The notes beneath the pieces are model-generated. The model was not told the DNA's origin and made no database searches. It saw only the letters and a list, made by a program, of their open reading frames with translations. From Mycobacterium sp. (lineage in GTDB: Bacteria > Actinomycetota > Actinomycetes > Mycobacteriales > Mycobacteriaceae), in contig NZ_JAVKSG010000006.1 in NCBI RefSeq assembly GCF_039583785.1, positions 5,163-69,162 of the forward strand: a stretch of DNA of 64,000 nucleotides, given 5' to 3'. Shown in pieces: positions 29,994-63,802 of this stretch. Every line of letters starts with the position of its first letter. Position 1 is the stretch's first letter. Made by a program: the position numbers and the translations under genes.

Positions 29994-30995
29994 TTGATGA
30001 ACCGTCGTATCCCGCTCACCCTGGGCGCCGCAGCCGGTGGGCTGCTGGCCTCCGCGCTCTTACCCGTCGCGATCGCCTTCGCCGACACCAGCGACCCGTT
30101 TACCATCTTTGCTGGACAAGTCGATTCGACCGCCTCAGCGGCCGAGCTGTCCAGCCTGGACTCGGCGCTGACCAGCGGCGACCCCAGCCTGGCTACCTCG
30201 CTGACCACCGATGTGACGGCAGGGACAACCCCGTTCGGCCTCGGGGAAGCGCCGTTCAACGATGACGCATTCGCCAACCTGCTCCCCGCCGACGCCACGA
30301 CGGCACAGATCAACGAGGCGGCCAATTACGATGCTGTGCTGTACAACGGTGACCCCACCCTGGCCGCCACACTGGCCGCCACCGACAGCACCGGGGCGTT
30401 CCCGGATGCACCCGGTTCTGACGCCATCACGCTCGGCAAGTTCACCTTCGACCCCTACACCGGCGGAACCGATTCCACTCCAGGGACCGAAGGCTTCGAC
30501 GCTCTGACCCAGGGAACCGGCACTTCGCCGTTTTTCGACACCGGCAGCGTGGCTGATCAGAACTTCGAGGTCTTCAGCCCGGCCAGCGGCTCCACACCCG
30601 CCGCGGTGCTCGGGACTGTCACCACCACCGAGAACGTCAGCAGCCTTGGCAGCATCACCAACACCGGGTTCGACATCACTGGTGACTCGCCCGTCGCGGG
30701 GGGAACTGCCGCGGACCTGCCGGCCATCGGGACGGCCTATGACGTCACCAACTTCGGCAGCGGCTATGAGAACATCTTCACCGATGTCCCGGATGCCGCT
30801 GGCAGCACCGCCGCCGGCACTGCCACCGACACCCTCGTGACGCCGTTCGGGGACTACGACCTGTCCAGCCTGGTCAGCACGTTTGACCTCACGAGCCTCG
30901 ACCCGGGTGCGGCCTTCGGTCTTGCCGCTGACACAAGCAGCGCTGCCGCTGACGCGGTCTCAAGCATCGACCCGCTGGCGTTCCTCGGCCTGTAA
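29994..30995 (+). CDS. Secreted hyper-acidic low-complexity protein of unknown function
   Basis: Signal peptide MMNRRIPLTLGAAAGGLLASALLPVAIAFA|D; strong GC3 coding pattern; mature part D/T/S/A/G-rich. Confidence 0.85.
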   Translation: MMNRRIPLTLGAAAGGLLASALLPVAIAFADTSDPFTIFAGQVDSTASAAELSSLDSALTSGDPSLATSLTTDVTAGTTPFGLGEAPFNDDAFANLLPADATTAQINEAANYDAVLYNGDPTLAATLAATDSTGAFPDAPGSDAITLGKFTFDPYTGGTDSTPGTEGFDALTQGTGTSPFFDTGSVADQNFEVFSPASGSTPAAVLGTVTTTENVSSLGSITNTGFDITGDSPVAGGTAADLPAIGTAYDVTNFGSGYENIFTDVPDAAGSTAAGTATDTLVTPFGDYDLSSLVSTFDLTSLDPGAAFGLAADTSSAAADAVSSIDPLAFLGL

Positions 30996-57707: not shown

Positions 57708-58973
57708 GTGAATTGGAATTCGATGCCGTCGTGGAAAGCCCGCGGGCTTGGTTTTGGACTGTTGGCAGGCGCCTGCGCTCTGAACGCAGCACCGGCGTGG
57801 GCGGACGCACCTGACCCAACTGATTACACCGCGCTGGTTCTCGGCCATGCGTTTCTGCCCCAGCCGAACGCGACGTACATGCAGGAGGTGATCGACACCT
57901 ATGTCGATCCCACAACTCCTTTCGAGGGGCAGCCGACGTACAACGTCGTCGGCGATCCGGTCAGCGTGTACACGCCCGAGACCGACTACACCACGGGGCT
58001 GACCCAGGGCGTCGCCGACCTGAACAGCCAGCTCACTCCGCTACTAACGGCGAATCCCGACGCCCACGTCGTCGTCGCCGGCTACTCGATGAGCCCCTCC
58101 GACATCACCCAGGAGATGATCAACCTCCAGGCTACGGGTGTGAAGGACCCGAACCTGGTCTTCGTGTTGGCAGAGGATCTCAACAACCCCGACGGAGGAT
58201 TCTTCACGCGGCTCCCGGGTTTTGGCGGCGAGACCCTGCCTGCGACACCCGCGGATACTCCATACACCACCGACATTTACAGCATCGAATACAGCGGGGC
58301 GTCCGACTTTCCCCAGTACGACGGCAACACGTTTGCGGACCTGAACGCCGCGGACGGTTACATCGACCTTCATCCCTACCTGCTGCCCGGCTGGCCGGCG
58401 TATTTCACGCCATCAGAGCTCGCCGGCGCGGTACCGGAACCCACGTCGGGAGCTGACGTCGCCACCAATTACTACCTCATTCCCACCCAGGATCTGCCGC
58501 TGCTGAACGTGCTTCGTCTGGAGCCCGGCGCACCGTCGGCGGACGCCGATCTGCTCCAGCCCGACATGCGGGTGCTGGTCGACCTGGGTTACAACTGGAC
58601 CGGCGACGCGAACGTCAGCACTCCGGCAACCCTGACAAACCCGGACATCGACACGACCGCGGTCGACTCTTACCTCACCGCCGGGGCCGACCAAGGCATG
58701 ATCAACGCCCTGGTGGACATGGGAGTGCTGCCGAAATCCGACCTGACGGGCTTGGCGGATATGTACCCCTACGTGCCGGATGTCGCGAACCTGATGAGTG
58801 GCGCCCTTACCGACAACACCGCTGCGGCGCTAGACGCGACGACCTCGGCCAGCTTGCTGACCACCGATCTGGCCAGCTCGACCAACCCGCTGGCGGCTGA
58901 CTTTGCCTCCTTCGCCCCGGGAATGGCCACCGATCTCGCCAATTACTTCCAACTTCTCGCCGGCTCGCTCTGA
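57708..58973 (+). CDS. Secreted PE-PPE-domain (cutinase-like fold) protein, highly acidic
   Basis: Signal peptide ending APAWA|D; AGYSMS, NNPDGGFFTR, IEYSGASDFPQY, LHPY, LVDLGY. No PE/PPE N-terminal domain. Confidence 0.82.
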   Translation: MNWNSMPSWKARGLGFGLLAGACALNAAPAWADAPDPTDYTALVLGHAFLPQPNATYMQEVIDTYVDPTTPFEGQPTYNVVGDPVSVYTPETDYTTGLTQGVADLNSQLTPLLTANPDAHVVVAGYSMSPSDITQEMINLQATGVKDPNLVFVLAEDLNNPDGGFFTRLPGFGGETLPATPADTPYTTDIYSIEYSGASDFPQYDGNTFADLNAADGYIDLHPYLLPGWPAYFTPSELAGAVPEPTSGADVATNYYLIPTQDLPLLNVLRLEPGAPSADADLLQPDMRVLVDLGYNWTGDANVSTPATLTNPDIDTTAVDSYLTAGADQGMINALVDMGVLPKSDLTGLADMYPYVPDVANLMSGALTDNTAAALDATTSASLLTTDLASSTNPLAADFASFAPGMATDLANYFQLLAGSL

Positions 58974-58988
58974 CCGCTGCTACATCCG

Positions 58989-59819
58989 TTGAATTCAAAG
59001 CTTGTCGCGCTGATCACCGGTGCGACGAGTGGTATCGGCGAAGCAACCGCCTACCGACTGCACGACCGTGGCTATACGGTGTTCGCCACCGGGCGCAACC
59101 CCGATGCCCTGGATGCCCTGCGGCGCAAGGGTTTACCGGCCCGTGAGCTCGACGTCACCGACGAGGCCGCCGTGGATCGACTCGTCGAGGAGATCAACGC
59201 CGAGCACGGCGGGGTCGACGTCCTGGTCAACAGCGCCGGCTACCCGCTCCCCCGCCCGCTCGAGCAAGTGGAGCTGAGCGAACTGCGGCATCTGTTCGAG
59301 ACCAATGTGGTTGCCACCCTTCATTTGTCGCAGGCGGTGTTGCCGACGATGCGCGCACGCGGTCAGGGCAGGATCGTCACGATCGGCAGCACCGGTGGAC
59401 GGTTCACCAGCCCGGGCGCCGGCGCATATCACGTCGTCAAGTACGGCGTCGAGGCGCTGTCGCTGTCGTTGGGCGCCGAGGTGGCACCGTTCGGTGTCCG
59501 TGTCGTGCTGATCGACCCGACCGGGGTGCGAACGCGTTTCGTCAGTGCGCAATTCGAGACGGAGCACTCCTACCCCGACGACGATCCCTACGGCGACTTC
59601 AAGATTCGCTATTCCCAAACCACCCGCAGGTTGGCCACGGCGAAGGGACTGACAGTGTCTGCCGACACGGTGGCCCGTGTCGTCATGCGGGCCGTGCAGG
59701 CCAAGAATCCCAAGCCCCGCTACGTCGTCGGGGCGTCCGGAAAGGCCTCCGTGCTGGCCCGCACGTTACTGAGCGACCGGATGTGGGACCGCGTCATGAG
59801 GCTGGGCATGCGGGGCTGA
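58989..59819 (+). CDS. Short-chain dehydrogenase/reductase
   Basis: TGATSGIG, NSAG, YHVVK, VVLIDP, PKPRYVVG; TTG start. Confidence 0.9.
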   Translation: MNSKLVALITGATSGIGEATAYRLHDRGYTVFATGRNPDALDALRRKGLPARELDVTDEAAVDRLVEEINAEHGGVDVLVNSAGYPLPRPLEQVELSELRHLFETNVVATLHLSQAVLPTMRARGQGRIVTIGSTGGRFTSPGAGAYHVVKYGVEALSLSLGAEVAPFGVRVVLIDPTGVRTRFVSAQFETEHSYPDDDPYGDFKIRYSQTTRRLATAKGLTVSADTVARVVMRAVQAKNPKPRYVVGASGKASVLARTLLSDRMWDRVMRLGMRG

Positions 59820-59916: not shown

Positions 59917-61554
59917 TCAGAACATGCTCAGGAGCGACTGCGGCACGAAGCTGCTGAGGTCTGCGCTGATCTGGGCGCTGACCTCGGCAAGTATTTGACT
60001 TACCGAGTCGGCGCCCGCCGTCGCGCCCAGGCTGGACATCAGCGCGCTCAGATCGGTCGACATCGACGGATCCAAGCTACTCGCGCTGGCCGCCGAGCCC
60101 GTCAGGCCCGGGTCGCCCTGTGTCGGATCGAGGAGGAACCCGACGGTGTTGGCGTTGTTCAAAGACGAGAAGTTCCAGTCGTTGTTGGTCAACAGGGTCA
60201 ACAGGTCCTGCCCGTCGAGATTGGGGTCGTAACCGCCATAGGTCGGGTCGAAGGTTGTCGTCAATGGATCGGCCGCGTACGCCACGTAGTTGGGGTCGGT
60301 CACGATCCCGTCGTTGGTGAACAGCGCCGGCAGTTCGGGGTTGATGGCAGCCAGGTCCGCGTCGTAGGTCGCCAGTTGATCCGGGGTCAGGTTGTAGTAG
60401 CCGGTCTGCAGCAGCGCGACGGCATCGTCGGTTTCGGCCTGGGTCGAGGTGCTATCGGTGGTGCTGCTCAGGTAGTCCTGAATCGTGGTGTTGCTCGGAT
60501 CCCAGGCCAGGATGTCCTGCACCAGCGCTGTCTGCGTGTCGGCAGCGGGGATGTCGCACAGCGCCGGGCAGGCCGGGCTGCCCTCGACGAAGGGGTCGAA
60601 GGCCACCACCGTCGACGCGGCGAAGTTCTGGAAGGCTTGGGTGAGGTCTGTGAGGCTGGGCAGGTCGATGCCGGTGCCGTCGATCCCGGAGGTCGACGGC
60701 GTGGCCAGCAGGCTGTTGTAGAAGTCCTGGAAGGGCCCGAGCAGGTTCAGCTTGAACGTGGCGTTCTCCCACGGCATGTAGTCACCGGCACCCGTACCGT
60801 TGACACCGGTCGTGCCGTCGAAGCCGAAGGCGCTGGCCACTCCGCCACCGGTGCCGGTGTCGGGGCTGGGGTCGATGATGCCGCCCGGGTCGGTGGTGGA
60901 GTTGAACGTGAAGTTACCGCTGGTCAACTCCGAGAGCGGCACCTGCAACCAGTGCGAGAAAAGTCCGAAGGGCTCACCGTTTTGGGTGGTGGCCGTCCCG
61001 CCGAGGGCCTGGAAGAAGCCGATGTCGCGGTCGAAAGCGGTGCTGCCGGTGATGACCTCCGGTGGTGTCATCGGATAGCAGGTCTGCGCGTCGCAGGAGG
61101 CACTGACCGGCAGTTCGGCGGCGGCCAGCATCGCGATCTGCTGCGCCAGACCCGCCGTACCGTCCGACAGCGCGGTCGGATCGATTTCCGGCTGGTCGAG
61201 CCCGGAAATCTGCGAAAACGGGAGCGCTATGTCGAGGAGTCCCATGTAGTGGCCGATGTCGCCGGGGTCGGTTCCCCACAGGTTCGTGGCGTTGGGGACC
61301 CACCAGTCCCCGCCGAAGAACAGCGAATTCGACAGCACATCGAGGCCCTGGATCTCGTTGGACGGGATGTTCGCGATGTCGTCGAACAGGTTGATCGGAA
61401 CGTTGAAGATGTCACTGCTGGCGTCGACCAGTCGGGTGTCGATATGGCGGACCGGGGGTTGCCCCGGTCGCAGCGGGAGTTGCACTCCCGCGATCGCGCC
61501 GGTCGCTAACAATGCCGCACTCGCCAAGATGCACGGACGTCCCGCAGCGCGCAT
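59917..61554 (-). CDS. Secreted hyper-acidic protein of unknown family, paralogue A
   Basis: N-terminus MRAAGRPCILASAALLATGAIA...PPVRHIDTRLVD (mycobacterial export-type leader); GC3-biased coding; collinear with 62105-63802. Start at ATG 61554. Confidence 0.85.
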   Translation of the reverse strand: MRAAGRPCILASAALLATGAIAGVQLPLRPGQPPVRHIDTRLVDASSDIFNVPINLFDDIANIPSNEIQGLDVLSNSLFFGGDWWVPNATNLWGTDPGDIGHYMGLLDIALPFSQISGLDQPEIDPTALSDGTAGLAQQIAMLAAAELPVSASCDAQTCYPMTPPEVITGSTAFDRDIGFFQALGGTATTQNGEPFGLFSHWLQVPLSELTSGNFTFNSTTDPGGIIDPSPDTGTGGGVASAFGFDGTTGVNGTGAGDYMPWENATFKLNLLGPFQDFYNSLLATPSTSGIDGTGIDLPSLTDLTQAFQNFAASTVVAFDPFVEGSPACPALCDIPAADTQTALVQDILAWDPSNTTIQDYLSSTTDSTSTQAETDDAVALLQTGYYNLTPDQLATYDADLAAINPELPALFTNDGIVTDPNYVAYAADPLTTTFDPTYGGYDPNLDGQDLLTLLTNNDWNFSSLNNANTVGFLLDPTQGDPGLTGSAASASSLDPSMSTDLSALMSSLGATAGADSVSQILAEVSAQISADLSSFVPQSLLSMF

Positions 61555-62104
61555 GGCGCCCCCTCTCCCCAGACGGTCAAAACTTCGCGCACTCAAGCTA
61601 CACTAAGGGAATCTAAGTTCGGGCGAGTACCTCAAAACTGGGCGTAAGGATATCGTTAGCAAGCCCTTTATTAGATTGACGCCGAGTAGGCGAGCAACAA
61701 AAGTCCAATTTCTTGGATATCCGCCGGCGAGGGACGCGCCGACTATGTCAATCCCCTTTCCGCGGTAAACACCGACCAGCCTGTGAGATCGGCGTCTAAT
61801 TATGACTCGACGCCGACCCCGCACGCCGCTGATCGCAGTTCTGCAGTCAGGAGTCGACAACCGCAGTCAAGGAGCCCCGACACAGACTCGTCAGATCCGG
61901 GCGGTCAGGCCCGGCGGACCTCCTGCTAGCGGAGTAAGGCGGCTTGACGTCGATGTCCGGTTGGATGGGCGGCGAGCTTTTGGCTAAGCGGCGGTCCTTG
62001 ACAAGTCTTGGCGCCCAGCCCTGAAACTCTCGTGCTGCAGCAAAAGCCACGGACTCGCTGCCGCCCGCCTGCGCGTTGGGGGCCGGCCGACCGACCGTCA
62101 AAGC

Positions 62105-63802
62105 TTAGAACAGGCTCAGCAGGTCCGTCGGCAATGTGGTGCCGAGGTCCGTCGACAATGACGTGCCAAGCTCGGCCGACAATGTCGTGGTGATGTCCGT
62201 CGACAGTTGTGACAGCATGGCACCGAAGTCCGTCGGGAGGGTCGATGCTCCGCCGAGGCCGAGCAATGCGCTGAGGTTGGCGCCATCGTTCGCCATCGAG
62301 CTGGTGTCCGAGCTGGCGGCCGCCGAGCTGGCCGCCGCTGCGCCGGAGTCCGCCACTACATAGCCGGGATCGACCAGGGCCAACAGATTACTGGGGTCAG
62401 ACAGCGCGGTGGCACTGGTGTCGTTGTTGGTCAGCAGGGTCAGGAGGTCTTGCCCCTCAAGTTCGGGATTCAAGCCGCCGTATACCGGGTCAAAGGGCGG
62501 ATTCGCGGCCTGGTTTGCTTCTACGGCGTCCGCGTAGGTCAGGTATCCGGGGTCGGTCAGTATCCCGGAGTTGGTAAACAGCGCCGGCAGTTCGGGATTG
62601 ATGGCGGCCAAGTCCGCGTCCTCGGTCGCTAGCTCTGTCGGGGGCAGGTTGAAGATACCCGTCTGCAAAACTGCTATGGACGCGTCGACTTCGGGGGTAG
62701 TTGCAGCACTGTCGCTCATGTTGGTGCCGGGGACCAGCCCGTTCAGGTAGGTCTGAAGCGTCGTGTTGCTCGGATCCAGGTTTTCGATATCTTGCACCAT
62801 CGCCGCACTGCTCAAACTTTCCGGTACGTCGCACGCCGCCGGGCAGACCGGACTCCCCTCGACAGCCGGATCGAAGGTGACCACCAGGGACGCGGCGAAG
62901 TTCTGAAGGGACTGGGTGAAATCCGTCAGGGTAGGAATCTCGATGCCGGTACCGTCGATGCCGGAGGTCGAGGGCGTGGCCAACAAGCTGTTGTAAAAGT
63001 CCTCGAAGGGGCCGAACAGATTCAGCTTGAAGGTGTCGCCGGCCCACGGCACCAGGCCAGCGGTGGCGCCGTCGGCCCCGGTCGTGCCGTCGAAGCCGTA
63101 AAGGCTGTTTACCGCTCCGTCCGGGCCGGTGTCGGGGCTGGGGTCGACGAGGCCCGCGTCGTCGGCGGAGGTGAACGTGAAGTCGCCGCTGGTCAAATCC
63201 GAAAGCGGTACCGTAAACCAGTGGTCGAAGATTCCGAGGGGCTCCTGCCCGGTAATCGTCTCGAGGAACTCGATGTCGCGGTCGAATTCTGTGCTGCCGG
63301 TGACCACATCTGTGGGGACGATCGGCGCGCAGGTCTCGGCGTCGCAGGACGCACTTATCGGGAGTTCGGCCGCCGCCAGTAGCGCAAGCTGTTGGCCCAG
63401 GCCCGCCGTACCGGCCGCATCGGCGGTCGGATCGATTTCAGGTTGATCGAGCCCGGATATCGATGAGAACGGGATCGCCGTGTCGATGATCCCCATGTAG
63501 TGGCCGATGTCGCCGGGGTCTGTTCCAAAAAGGTTCGTGGCGTTGGGGACGAAAATGTTCCCGCTGAAGAGCAGCGAATCGGAGAGCACGTTCAATCCCT
63601 GGACCTCGTTGTACGGGATGTTCGCGAGGTCGTCGAACAGGTTGACCGGGACGTTGAGCACCGAGCCGGCGTCCACCAGGCGGGTCTCAACACTGCGGAC
63701 GGGAGGGTGGGCGGTCCGCGACGTGAACGGTGCGGCGGCAAGGGCACCGGTCGCCGCCATCGCCGCACCCAGAAGGACATACGAACGTGACACAGCCTGC
63801 AT
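62105..63802 (-). CDS. Secreted hyper-acidic protein of unknown family, paralogue B
   Basis: MQAVSRSYVLLGAAMAATGALAA...PPVRSVETRLVD leader; shares PNATNL.GTDPGDIGHYMG, SCDA.TC, FDRDI, FKLNL.GPF, CPA.C and DLAAINPELPALFTN with paralogue A. Confidence 0.87.
   Translation of the reverse strand: MQAVSRSYVLLGAAMAATGALAAAPFTSRTAHPPVRSVETRLVDAGSVLNVPVNLFDDLANIPYNEVQGLNVLSDSLLFSGNIFVPNATNLFGTDPGDIGHYMGIIDTAIPFSSISGLDQPEIDPTADAAGTAGLGQQLALLAAAELPISASCDAETCAPIVPTDVVTGSTEFDRDIEFLETITGQEPLGIFDHWFTVPLSDLTSGDFTFTSADDAGLVDPSPDTGPDGAVNSLYGFDGTTGADGATAGLVPWAGDTFKLNLFGPFEDFYNSLLATPSTSGIDGTGIEIPTLTDFTQSLQNFAASLVVTFDPAVEGSPVCPAACDVPESLSSAAMVQDIENLDPSNTTLQTYLNGLVPGTNMSDSAATTPEVDASIAVLQTGIFNLPPTELATEDADLAAINPELPALFTNSGILTDPGYLTYADAVEANQAANPPFDPVYGGLNPELEGQDLLTLLTNNDTSATALSDPSNLLALVDPGYVVADSGAAAASSAAASSDTSSMANDGANLSALLGLGGASTLPTDFGAMLSQLSTDITTTLSAELGTSLSTDLGTTLPTDLLSLF

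What the first reader, a model, noticed from the sequence alone, without database searches (positions are those of the whole stretch)
59917..63802. Tandem ~550-aa secreted paralogues of an unrecognised family, each with exactly one Arg and one Lys at the same conserved positions
After the leader (…TRLVD), each ~510-520-residue chain has, by my reading, one Arg (FDRDI) and one Lys (FKLNL) in identical motifs, two His, and two conserved Cys pairs (SCDAxTC, CPAxC), amid very high Asp/Thr/Ser. DNA identity persists (29 nt at 61241-61269 = 63492-63520). Conserved blocks with aromatic and charged residues (PNATNLxGTDPGDIGHYMG, HW, PW, GPFxDFYNSLL) imply a folded domain, not mere low complexity; the retained R, K and H are candidate functional residues. 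Nearly invisible to tryptic proteomics. With the 29994 and PE-PPE proteins they may form an undescribed acidic surface or capsule system.
Basis: partly seen in the sequence, partly recalled or inferred. Interest (0 to 1): 0.78.

Follow-up and report, generated by a model that had tools for sequence, protein, structure and literature searches.

The report
New acidic exported mycobacterial protein family
Two neighbouring genes encode exported, very acidic proteins with almost no lysine or arginine. They belong to an undescribed mycobacterial family with no known fold, they always sit inside a wax-lipid gene cluster, and their odd composition is shared by about 35 other exported proteins of the same bacterium.

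Summary
Two co-directional genes (59917-61554 and 62105-63802, minus strand) encode 55%-identical proteins. After the TRLVD leader each has exactly one Arg, one Lys, two His and four Cys.

- **No known relative.** Pfam, NCBIfam and PDB sequence searches found nothing. A confident AlphaFold model (pLDDT 82, pTM 0.79; mostly helical) has no Foldseek match.
- **Conservation.** In 121 close relatives the single Arg (FDRD) is kept in 113. The Lys is kept in only 24. His101 is always a basic residue.
- **Not unique to this pair.** The genome holds 35 acidic proteins with under 2% Lys+Arg, in at least 19 unrelated families. These include PE-PPE hydrolases, a cellulase, phosphoesterases and a peptidase-like protein. 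They tend to end in hydrophobic tails such as ...LLSLF.
- **Fixed genomic position.** The family forms tandem arrays of 2-4 copies between papA5/pps genes and an SDR plus PE-PPE hydrolase. Of 74 genomes in a 300-genome genus sample that carry this papA5 type, 70 also carry the family. Some relatives are fused to a PE-PPE domain.

Best reading: non-catalytic cell-envelope partners of a PDIM-like wax-lipid pathway. The function is inferred, not shown. Another first-stage note on this same stretch raised the C-terminal tails; the scan had not seen the family on other DNA.

The parts
62105..63802 (-). Gene B, 565 aa. Start at ATG 63802; the consensus N-terminus of relatives supports this start.
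   Evidence: GC3 0.80
59917..61554 (-). Gene A, 545 aa from ATG 61554, preceded by GGAGAGGGGG. The maximal ORF from TTG 61596 would give 559 aa.
   Evidence: P0030 is 545 aa
63671..63802 (-). B leader, 44 aa: basic N-end, an 18-residue hydrophobic stretch, a Pro-rich linker holding 3 Arg, then TRLVD. It is either a signal peptide or a signal anchor.
   Evidence: leader HMM also hits 4-7 other Lys/Arg-poor proteins
61423..61554 (-). A leader, 44 aa, ending in TRLVD.
62393..63670 (-). B core domain (residues 45-470): a mostly helical fold with a small beta insert. Motifs include NIPxN twice, TNxWGxDPGD, PW..TFxLN and FDPxVxGSPxCPxxC.
   Evidence: AlphaFold model m4a538bd7c2a5, pLDDT 81.6, pTM 0.79; conservation
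60157..61422 (-). A core domain.
62105..62392 (-). B C-terminal tail: low-complexity Ser/Thr/Asp/Leu segment with xTDL repeats, ending DLLSLF (stop codon included).
59917..60156 (-). A C-terminal tail, ending SLLSMF (stop codon included).
63278..63280 (-). B Arg175, the only Arg after the leader (FDRD). It is R in 113/121 close relatives, and the neighbouring Asp174 is invariant.
61027..61029 (-). A single Arg, at the same column as B Arg175.
63026..63028 (-). B Lys259, the only Lys. It is not conserved: Q 52, T 35, K 24 of 121.
60751..60753 (-). A single Lys, at the same column as B Lys259.
63500..63502 (-). B His101 in DPGDIGHYMG. It is H in 119/121 close relatives, and H, K or R in 59/61 distant ones.
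63329..63346 (-). B Cys153 and Cys158 (CxxxxC), a likely local disulfide.
62831..62845 (-). B Cys320 and Cys324 (CxxxC), a likely local disulfide.
61555..62104 (.). 550-bp spacer between B and A. Relatives L011 and L012 carry two more paralogues between the orthologues of B and A. One terminator-like hairpin lies at 62049-62068.
58989..59819 (+). Short-chain dehydrogenase (SDR2), convergent with A. It is adjacent to the array in 57/74 related loci and was not found in the 5 family-less genomes tested.
57708..58973 (+). Exported PE-PPE-domain hydrolase, itself Lys/Arg-poor (2 K, 3 R) with a hydrophobic C-terminal end. It is a neighbour in 40/74 loci, and its domain type is fused to family members elsewhere.

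Best explanation
A and B are two members of an undescribed protein family that is restricted to Mycobacteriaceae. Each protein has three parts. First comes an N-terminal hydrophobic leader that takes it through the Sec pathway out of the cytoplasm. Next is a core of about 420 residues, mostly helical, held by two short-range disulfides. Last is a flexible acidic tail that ends in a few hydrophobic residues (...LLS(L/M)F). The core keeps no plausible catalytic set. What is invariant is structural (Pro, Gly, Trp, Cys) or Asn/Asp, plus two basic positions (101 and 175). The genes are a fixed part of a variant PapA5/Pps (PDIM-like) wax-lipid locus. They lie beside an exported PE-PPE serine hydrolase or acyltransferase, and in some species are fused to one. 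My reading is that they act outside the plasma membrane as non-catalytic partners, either binding or scaffolding lipid, that help to place or remodel that lipid in the outer envelope, with the tail holding them at the mycomembrane. The locus-bearing contig encodes no MmpL and no LppX-type carrier, so the family may fill the role LppX has in the canonical PDIM locus. The near absence of Lys and Arg is not a catalytic feature. It is the signature of a whole class of this organism's outer-envelope or secreted proteins. Shown here: the family, its conservation, the export-type ends, the predicted fold, the synteny, the fusions and the class-wide composition. Inferred: export itself, localisation, lipid handling and the role of the tail.
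For: Family and fold:
- 366 word-index relatives and 292 representatives at 50% identity.
- No Pfam, NCBIfam or PDB sequence hit.
- Model pLDDT 81.6, pTM 0.79, helical. Foldseek against PDB and BFVD gave nothing below E = 0.68, with TM below 0.15.

Purifying selection: dN/dS 0.30-0.37.

Export features:
- Hydrophobic leader.
- Four near-invariant Cys in CxxxxC and CxxxC.

Locus link:
- Gene order is pps PKSs, papA5, two unknown genes, nitroreductase, the array, SDR2, PE-PPE, SDR, P450.
- Neighbours are kept in related loci: nitroreductase 57/74, SDR2 57/74, papA5 42/74, PE-PPE 40/74.
- In a 300-genome genus sample, 70 of 74 genomes with this papA5 type also have the family, usually 3-12 kb away. 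This holds even for members that match only over the N-terminal third.
- Genomes that carry only a 44-53%-identical papA5 have none.

PE-PPE link: the domain is fused N- or C-terminally in 4 of 51 diverse members.

Missing carriers: no MMPL or LppX_LprAFG gene on the 93.7-kb contig.

Paralogue history: several old paralogue clades are kept in arrays of 2-4 copies.

Class signature:
- The Lys+Arg histogram is bimodal, with 35 acidic proteins under 2% in at least 19 clusters.
- Their last six residues are hydrophobic: mean hydropathy 1.07 against -0.40, p = 4e-11. The last residue is Phe in 26% against 1.9% of other proteins.
- The neighbouring PE-PPE orthologues in 37/38 loci from two genera show the same composition and the same kind of end.
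Against: - Nothing ties the fold to lipid binding. It resembles no known carrier such as LppX or LprG, and I could not inspect the model for cavities.
- Conserved synteny within one genus could be inheritance without functional coupling, because related genomes are not independent samples.
- Extreme acidity and Lys/Arg loss fit released proteins at least as well as envelope-resident ones.
- Whether the leader is cleaved could not be predicted, because no signal-peptide predictor was available.
- There is no expression or proteomic evidence (run search closed).
- Invariant Asp95, Asp98, Asp174, Asn54, Asn90 and the basic residue at 101 could still form an unrecognised active or metal-binding site.
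Confidence: 0.4

Rival explanations
1. They are structural surface proteins. A and B would be abundant building blocks of an outer protein layer or capsule matrix, held to the mycomembrane by the hydrophobic C-terminal tail, as the PS2/CspB S-layer protein of Corynebacterium glutamicum is. They would have no role in lipid handling.
For: - About 500 aa, very acidic, with an export leader and a hydrophobic C-terminal end.
- No conserved catalytic set.
- Several paralogues evolve fairly fast: dN/dS 0.3-0.44.
- The Lys/Arg-free composition is shared with other outer proteins.
- The comparison with PS2 rests on my own knowledge of that protein.
Against: - No sequence relation to any S-layer family.
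- The tail is a short amphipathic end, not a 20-residue hydrophobic anchor.
- To my knowledge no S-layer is known in mycobacteria.
- This reading does not explain the tight linkage to papA5 or the fusions to PE-PPE hydrolases.
Confidence: 0.2
2. The helical core is a new secreted enzyme, a hydrolase, lyase or transferase acting on an envelope glycan or lipid. Its active site would be built from the invariant Asp and Asn residues and the conserved basic residues at 101 and 175.
For: - N54, N90, D95, D98 and D174 are invariant or nearly so across a family that otherwise falls to about 25% identity. Trp83, Trp92 and Trp253 are also kept.
- Position 101 is always H, K or R.
- Other members of the Lys/Arg-free class are real enzymes: a GH5 cellulase, phosphoesterases and PE-PPE hydrolases.
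Against: - No fold match to any enzyme in the PDB despite a confident model.
- No conserved Glu, Ser or His nucleophile across the broad family.
- Arg175 varies in distant members: R 17, Q 8, S 8, K 6.
- Fusion to a hydrolase domain suggests a helper more than a second enzyme.
Confidence: 0.15
3. The composition is only an adaptation to habitat. Loss of Lys and Arg with excess Asp would make these proteins stable and uncharged in acid (as with pepsin), or resistant to trypsin-like proteases, in bog and soil mycobacteria. It would say nothing about sorting or location, and the tails would be incidental.
For: - Many carriers are MAGs from bog, peat or soil. Named relatives include Mycobacterium cookii, Candidatus M. 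methanotrophicum and Mycolicibacter acidiphilus.
- Acid-stable proteins are typically poor in basic residues (my own knowledge).
Against: - Only about 35 of roughly 270 proteins with a signal-like N-terminus are depleted. The rest, including lipobox proteins, have 8-8.5% Lys+Arg.
- The clinical isolates M. shimoidei and Mycobacterium sp. 1245111.1 keep the depletion.
- Within the family, the depth of depletion follows the type of C-terminal end: 0.5% against 2.7%.
- Nitrogen saving is unlikely, because Asn and Gln are abundant.
Confidence: 0.15
4. They are mycomembrane channel or transport proteins, helical and acidic like the PE/PPE proteins reported to carry nutrients across the outer membrane.
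For: Helical, acidic and Lys/Arg-poor like PE/PPE proteins. Several specialised paralogues exist. The PE/PPE transport role is taken from my own knowledge of the literature.
Against: No PE or PPE domain. A Sec-type leader is present instead of type VII secretion features. The model shows no long amphipathic or hydrophobic membrane-spanning elements. There is no evidence of oligomerisation.
Confidence: 0.07

Closest known systems
PE-PPE domain proteins (Pfam PF08237), e.g. the membrane-anchored acyltransferases Chp1 (Rv3822) and Chp2 (Rv1184c) of M. tuberculosis (PMC3318749, PMC4183827)
   Same: Both are exported envelope proteins encoded in or beside outer-lipid loci. In this genome they share the same kind of N-terminal leader, the same Lys/Arg-poor acidic composition and the same kind of hydrophobic C-terminal end. 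They are adjacent in 40/74 loci and fused in 4/51 diverse family members.
   Different: There is no sequence similarity. The family has no GxSxG serine motif, and its predicted fold is all-helical rather than alpha/beta hydrolase. It is a partner of this family, not a member of it.
LppX (Rv2945c), the lipoprotein carrier encoded in the canonical PDIM locus (LppX_LprAFG, PF07161)
   Same: Both are extracytoplasmic proteins encoded inside a PapA5/Pps wax-lipid locus. The present locus lacks an LppX or MmpL gene on its contig, so the family could play the equivalent role.
   Different: The family has no lipobox, no PF07161 match and an unrelated predicted fold. Lipid binding has not been tested.
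PS2/CspB S-layer protein of Corynebacterium glutamicum, and Erp (Rv3810) of mycobacteria: Sec-exported surface proteins held by a hydrophobic C-terminus (from my own knowledge)
   Same: Similar size, acidity, N-terminal signal and hydrophobic C-terminal end. All belong to mycolate-envelope bacteria.
   Different: No detectable homology. The tail here is a short amphipathic end after a low-complexity acidic segment, not a long hydrophobic anchor. Self-assembly is unknown.
PE/PPE proteins of slow-growing mycobacteria
   Same: Mycobacterium-specific, helical, acidic, poor in Lys/Arg and therefore hard to see by tryptic proteomics, expanded by tandem duplication, and associated with the surface.
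   Different: The family has no PE or PPE domain. It carries a Sec-type leader rather than type VII features. The genome has its own 13 PE and about 36 PPE genes elsewhere.

Membership tests
PE-PPE domain (PF08237) | Match to the PF08237 profile | tested here: not met
   No hit at E <= 1 for A or B, while the neighbour at 57708-58973 scores 2.1e-37. BLASTP of B against that neighbour found nothing.
PE-PPE domain (PF08237) | Alpha/beta-hydrolase fold with a GxSxG serine | tested here: not met
   The model is mostly helical. The aligned family has no GxSxG motif.
PE / PPE families (PF00934, PF00823) | N-terminal PE or PPE domain | tested here: not met
   No Pfam hit. The genome's PE and PPE genes are all elsewhere.
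Sec-exported proteins | N-terminal basic region plus a hydrophobic core | tested here: met
   Both leaders have Arg followed by a hydrophobic stretch of about 18 residues; maximum 15-residue hydropathy is 1.9-2.1.
Sec-exported proteins | Signal-peptidase cleavage site (or retention as an anchor) | not testable with these tools
   No signal-peptide predictor was available. B has ALA-A, but the family consensus (IAVTP) is not a clear AxA site.
Twin-arginine (Tat) substrates | RR motif before the hydrophobic core | tested here: not met
   The leaders read MQAVSRSY... and MRAAGRPC..., with no RR. Other Lys/Arg-free proteins of this genome do carry RRR.
LppX/LprG lipid carriers (PF07161) | Profile match and lipobox cysteine | tested here: not met
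   No Pfam hit and no lipobox in the leaders. The only PF07161 gene in the genome is on contig C13.
Porins / beta-barrel outer-membrane proteins | Beta-rich barrel fold | tested here: not met
   The secondary structure of the confident model is helical, with only a few short strands.
S-layer proteins (PS2/CspB type) | Homology to a known S-layer family | tested here: not met
   No Pfam or PDB sequence match and no fold match.
S-layer proteins (PS2/CspB type) | Self-assembly into a surface lattice | not testable with these tools
   This needs purified protein or cryo-electron tomography.

The most novel reading that the evidence does not exclude
Three features would together mark a so far unrecognised sorting class in mycobacteria: near-total absence of Lys and Arg, a short hydrophobic C-terminal end of the D-L-L-S-(L/M)-F kind (often preceded by xTDL repeats), and a Sec or Tat leader. 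Proteins of this class, after export across the plasma membrane, would be passed into or across the mycomembrane. A and B would be cargo of that route, or lipid-coupled parts of it. The signature appears on at least 19 unrelated folds in this genome. It is conserved on two different protein families across two genera. Inside this one family the depth of the depletion follows the type of C-terminal end.
Probability: 0.15. Interest if true: 0.85.

Novelty: new variant of a known kind. Interest (0 to 1): 0.6.

Why it matters
How proteins are assembled into or pass the mycobacterial outer membrane is an open question. [quoted passage not shown] This finding contributes three things.

- **A new family.** It is a well-conserved exported protein family with a confidently predicted fold that matches nothing solved. 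It is tied by position and by domain fusion to outer-lipid biosynthesis (a PapA5/Pps locus) and to PE-PPE lipid hydrolases.
- **A bioinformatic handle.** A sharply separated class of Lys/Arg-free proteins with hydrophobic C-terminal ends could be tested as a sorting signature with simple tail-swap and fractionation experiments in laboratory strains.
- **A practical warning.** Tryptic proteomics of environmental and clinical non-tuberculous mycobacteria will miss this whole class.

If the proteins turn out to be ordinary secreted proteins of unknown role, the gain is a new domain family and a better annotation of a widespread lipid locus.

Tried and rejected
- **Family libraries.** Pfam and NCBIfam scans of A and B found nothing. 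Scanning 51 diverse members singly gave only PE-PPE hits, in the fusion proteins.
- **PDB sequence searches.** Two family profiles found nothing meaningful; best E = 0.53.
- **First structure model.** The shallow alignment gave a poor model (pLDDT 56), and its fold search was meaningless. I replaced it with a deeper alignment built from genome loci.
- **Fold searches.** Foldseek against PDB and against viral models found no match. No AlphaFold-DB library of cellular proteins was available.
- **Homology to the neighbouring PE-PPE protein.** Rejected. The 'PE-PPE domain-containing' names seen in UniRef probably come from cluster representatives that are fusion proteins; this is an inference.
- **Gene conversion between A and B.** Rejected. 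The 29-nt run fits codon-shuffle expectation, P = 0.057.
- **Nitrogen economy as the cause of Lys/Arg loss.** Rejected, because Asn and Gln are plentiful.
- **Acid adaptation as the sole cause.** Weakened. Most signal-bearing proteins are not depleted, and clinical species keep the trait.
- **Profile of the C-terminal tail.** It found no other protein in the genome. The tails share composition and end type, not alignable sequence, so I used hydropathy and motif counts with shuffles instead.
- **Empty-site comparison.** In 5 family-less complete genomes the nitroreductase homologue is not syntenic and SDR2 has no orthologue, so no clean empty site was found.
- **Literature.** Searches found no description of the family or of a Lys/Arg-free exported class.

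Full report
**1. What is in the sequence**

Two ORFs lie on the minus strand. A is 59917-61596 at its longest, and B is 62105-63802. They are 55% identical over their full length.

After the shared TRLVD motif the chains are 501 aa (A) and 521 aa (B). Each has exactly one Arg (FDRDI), one Lys (FKLNL), two His and four Cys (SCDAxTC and CPAxC). Asp, Thr, Ser, Leu and Ala dominate the rest.

The frame is truly coding:
- GC3 is 0.87 for A and 0.80 for B.
- dN/dS is 0.30-0.37 against orthologues and 0.44 between A and B.
- The five other frames would hold 6-25% Arg, so the lack of Arg is selected at protein level.

Gene A most likely starts at the ATG at 61554, which follows GGAGAGGGGG. This gives 545 aa, as in the database copy P0030.

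The 29-nt run lies on the most conserved peptide, DPGDIGHYMG. It is no longer than codon-wise shuffles of the alignment give (P = 0.057), so there is no sign of gene conversion.

**2. An unrecognised but sizeable family**

Pfam and NCBIfam give no hit at E <= 1. Profile searches of all PDB sequences give nothing meaningful.

The word-index search found 366 relatives. They come mostly from soil and bog metagenomes, from MAGs labelled Mycobacterium, and from M. cookii, Candidatus M. methanotrophicum and Mycobacterium sp. 1245111.1. All are named 'hypothetical' or carry names borrowed from a cluster. An exhaustive phmmer scan of 1.84 billion representatives found 292 clusters.

A scan of one genome per species gave 74 loci, in Mycobacterium MAGs, M. 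shimoidei and many Mycolicibacter species. In a sample of 300 species of the genus, 79 have a match at E <= 1e-10 and about 45 have a full-length one. Among 200 genomes spread over the GTDB family, only 5 matched, and only over the N-terminal part.

A still more distant branch occurs in Mycolicibacterium, again wholly unnamed. The window's own genome has two further distant paralogues: C3:21017-22450 and C6:83578-84975 (hhalign 99% and 98%).

**3. Which residues are conserved**

| Position (B numbering) | 121 relatives at >= 48% identity | 61 more distant members |
|---|---|---|
| Arg175 | R in 113 | R 17, Q 8, S 8, K 6 |
| Asp174 | invariant | D in all 51 aligned (10 gaps) |
| Lys259 | K 24, Q 52, T 35 | variable |
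| His101 | H in 119 | H, K or R in 59 |
| His194 | usually Asn | variable |
| Four Cys | near-invariant | near-invariant |

Among the close relatives, 109 have exactly one Arg after the leader, and 48 have no Lys at all.

Over the broad family the invariant residues are N54, N90, G93 and D95. D98, three Trp and several Pro and Gly are nearly invariant. This looks structural, or like a binding or metal site, rather than a classical catalytic set.

So the Arg and the first His are fair candidates for important residues. The Lys and the second His are not.

**4. Fold**

A shallow alignment gave a poor model (pLDDT 56). An alignment of 58 proteins read from genome loci, with B residues 38-475 as target, gave pLDDT 81.6 and pTM 0.79. 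The model has about twenty helices and a small beta insert around residues 205-260.

Foldseek against the PDB found nothing below E = 0.68, with TM below 0.15. The viral library gave nothing either. No library of predicted cellular structures was available, so the correct statement is 'no known solved fold', not 'new fold'.

**5. Architecture**

The proteins have three parts.
- **Leader.** A basic start, about 18 hydrophobic residues, then a Pro-rich linker that carries the last basic residues and ends in (V/T)RLVD.
- **Core.** Residues 45-470 of B.
- **Tail.** A low-confidence Ser/Thr/Asp/Leu segment with xTDL repeats that ends DLLSLF (B) or SLLSMF (A).

A profile of the leader also finds the two distant paralogues and two unrelated large proteins of this genome. 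It finds some PE-PPE hydrolases more weakly.

**6. The composition belongs to a class, not to these genes**

I built a crude gene set of 3005 long ORFs with high GC3. Its median Lys+Arg is 9.6%, and the distribution is bimodal with a separate peak at 0-0.5%.

Thirty-five acidic proteins lie under 2%, in at least 19 BLAST clusters. They include:
- ten PE-PPE hydrolases, among them the neighbour at 57708-58973;
- the family of the ORF at 29994-30995;
- a GH5 cellulase with PGRS repeats;
- two phosphoesterases;
- a PE-PGRS_C peptidase-like protein;
- a beta-propeller with PGRS repeats.

Most proteins with a signal-like N-terminus are not depleted (median 8.1%), and lipobox proteins are not either (8.5%).

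The depleted class ends differently from the other proteins:

| Measure | Depleted class | Other proteins |
|---|---|---|
| Mean hydropathy of the last six residues | 1.07 | -0.40 (p = 4e-11) |
| Last residue is Phe | 26% | 1.9% |
| xDL motifs in the last 60 residues | 16 observed | 3.8 +/- 1.9 in shuffles of the depleted proteins |

The neighbouring PE-PPE orthologues in 37 of 38 related loci, from two genera, have the same composition (0.5-3.3% Lys+Arg) and hydrophobic ends.

Within the family the depth of depletion follows the tail. Members ending in hydrophobic tails have 0.5% Lys+Arg in the core. Members ending GG(R/K)HRA(E/A) after long charged tails have 2.7% (p = 1.6e-6).

**7. Genomic context**

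The order on the contig is: two Pps-type polyketide synthases, a PapA5-type acyltransferase, two unknown genes, a nitroreductase, B, A, then (convergent) SDR2, the PE-PPE hydrolase, a second SDR, a hypothetical gene, a P450 and the methyltransferase block. An earlier follow-up had already read that block as part of a PDIM-like locus.

In the 74 related loci the neighbours recur: nitroreductase 57, SDR2 57, second SDR 53, papA5 42 and PE-PPE 40. These counts are limited by the 6-kb flanks.

Arrays hold 2-4 paralogues. A tree shows several old paralogue clades. A and B both fall in the clade next to SDR2. The closest relatives, L011 and L012, keep two more genes where this genome has a 550-bp spacer.

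The genus sample gave these results:
- 74 genomes carry a papA5 of this type (E <= 1e-150, at least 58% identity).
- 70 of those 74 also have a family match, usually 3-12 kb away on the same contig, even when the match covers only the N-terminal third.
- Genomes with only a 44-53%-identical papA5 have none (I compared the two lists by eye).

Related genomes are not independent samples, so this is strong linkage, not proof of function.

Four of 51 diverse members are fused to a PE-PPE domain, on either side. The 93.7-kb contig has no MmpL and no LppX-type gene.

**8. Interpretation**

The safest statement is that these are exported, disulfide-bonded envelope or surface proteins of a new family. 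I commit to a further step at about 0.4 confidence: they are non-catalytic partners of the wax-lipid pathway and its PE-PPE hydrolase, acting outside the plasma membrane and held near the mycomembrane by the tail.

The rivals are a structural surface layer, a new enzyme, habitat-driven composition with no sorting meaning, and a channel.

The most novel reading that remains open is that Lys/Arg absence plus the hydrophobic C-terminal end marks a sorting class for the outer envelope. A recent paper describes that field as having no known mechanism for any mycobacterial protein (PMC12635105). PE-PPE proteins Chp1 and Chp2 are known membrane-anchored acyltransferases for outer lipids (PMC3318749 and PMC4183827), which makes the partner idea reasonable.

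**9. Limits**

- No signal-peptide predictor was available.
- I had no access to model coordinates.
- No library of predicted cellular folds was available.
- The gene set is my own crude ORF filter.
- The co-occurrence counts are not corrected for phylogeny.

Noticed in passing
own genome, outside the window: C1:81265-83577, C1:128262-130091, C13:33950-35161, C60:7368-9452, C51:8779-10740: PGRS repeats, a PE-PGRS_C peptidase-like domain, a GH5 cellulase and phosphoesterases sit on proteins with Tat-like RRR leaders and a shared mature start (AD-x-D-x-I-x-DPIIQP), not behind PE domains. The genome's 13 PE genes are all short.
   Followed up: partly
related proteins P0146, P0150, P0162, P0164, P0169; loci L076, L080, L082: Distant family members with normal Lys/Arg carry long disordered Ser/Gly/Asp-rich tails. 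These tails end in a conserved GG(R/K)HRA(E/A) motif of unknown meaning.
   Followed up: partly
own genome C6:83578-84975 (about 14.6 kb beyond the window end) and C3:21017-22450: Two further, very divergent paralogues of the family (hhalign 98-99%). One lies on the far side of the pps genes of the same locus.
   Followed up: partly
The members share ends such as ...DPLAFLGL.
   Followed up: partly
own genome C7:33455-35947 and C49:17590-19611: Two large (830 and 673 aa) Lys/Arg-free proteins share only the leader (RPYxxAGVALVGASxIAVTP ... V(R/K)LVD) with A and B. The C7 gene lies directly after two PPE genes.
   Followed up: no
own genome C4:98919-100178: A second PapA5 paralogue (67% identical to the one beside the array). 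Several relatives also have two.
   Followed up: no
window 61555-62104: The 550-bp spacer between B and A is where close relatives carry two extra paralogues, so it is probably a deletion scar. It holds one terminator-like hairpin at 62049-62068.
   Followed up: partly
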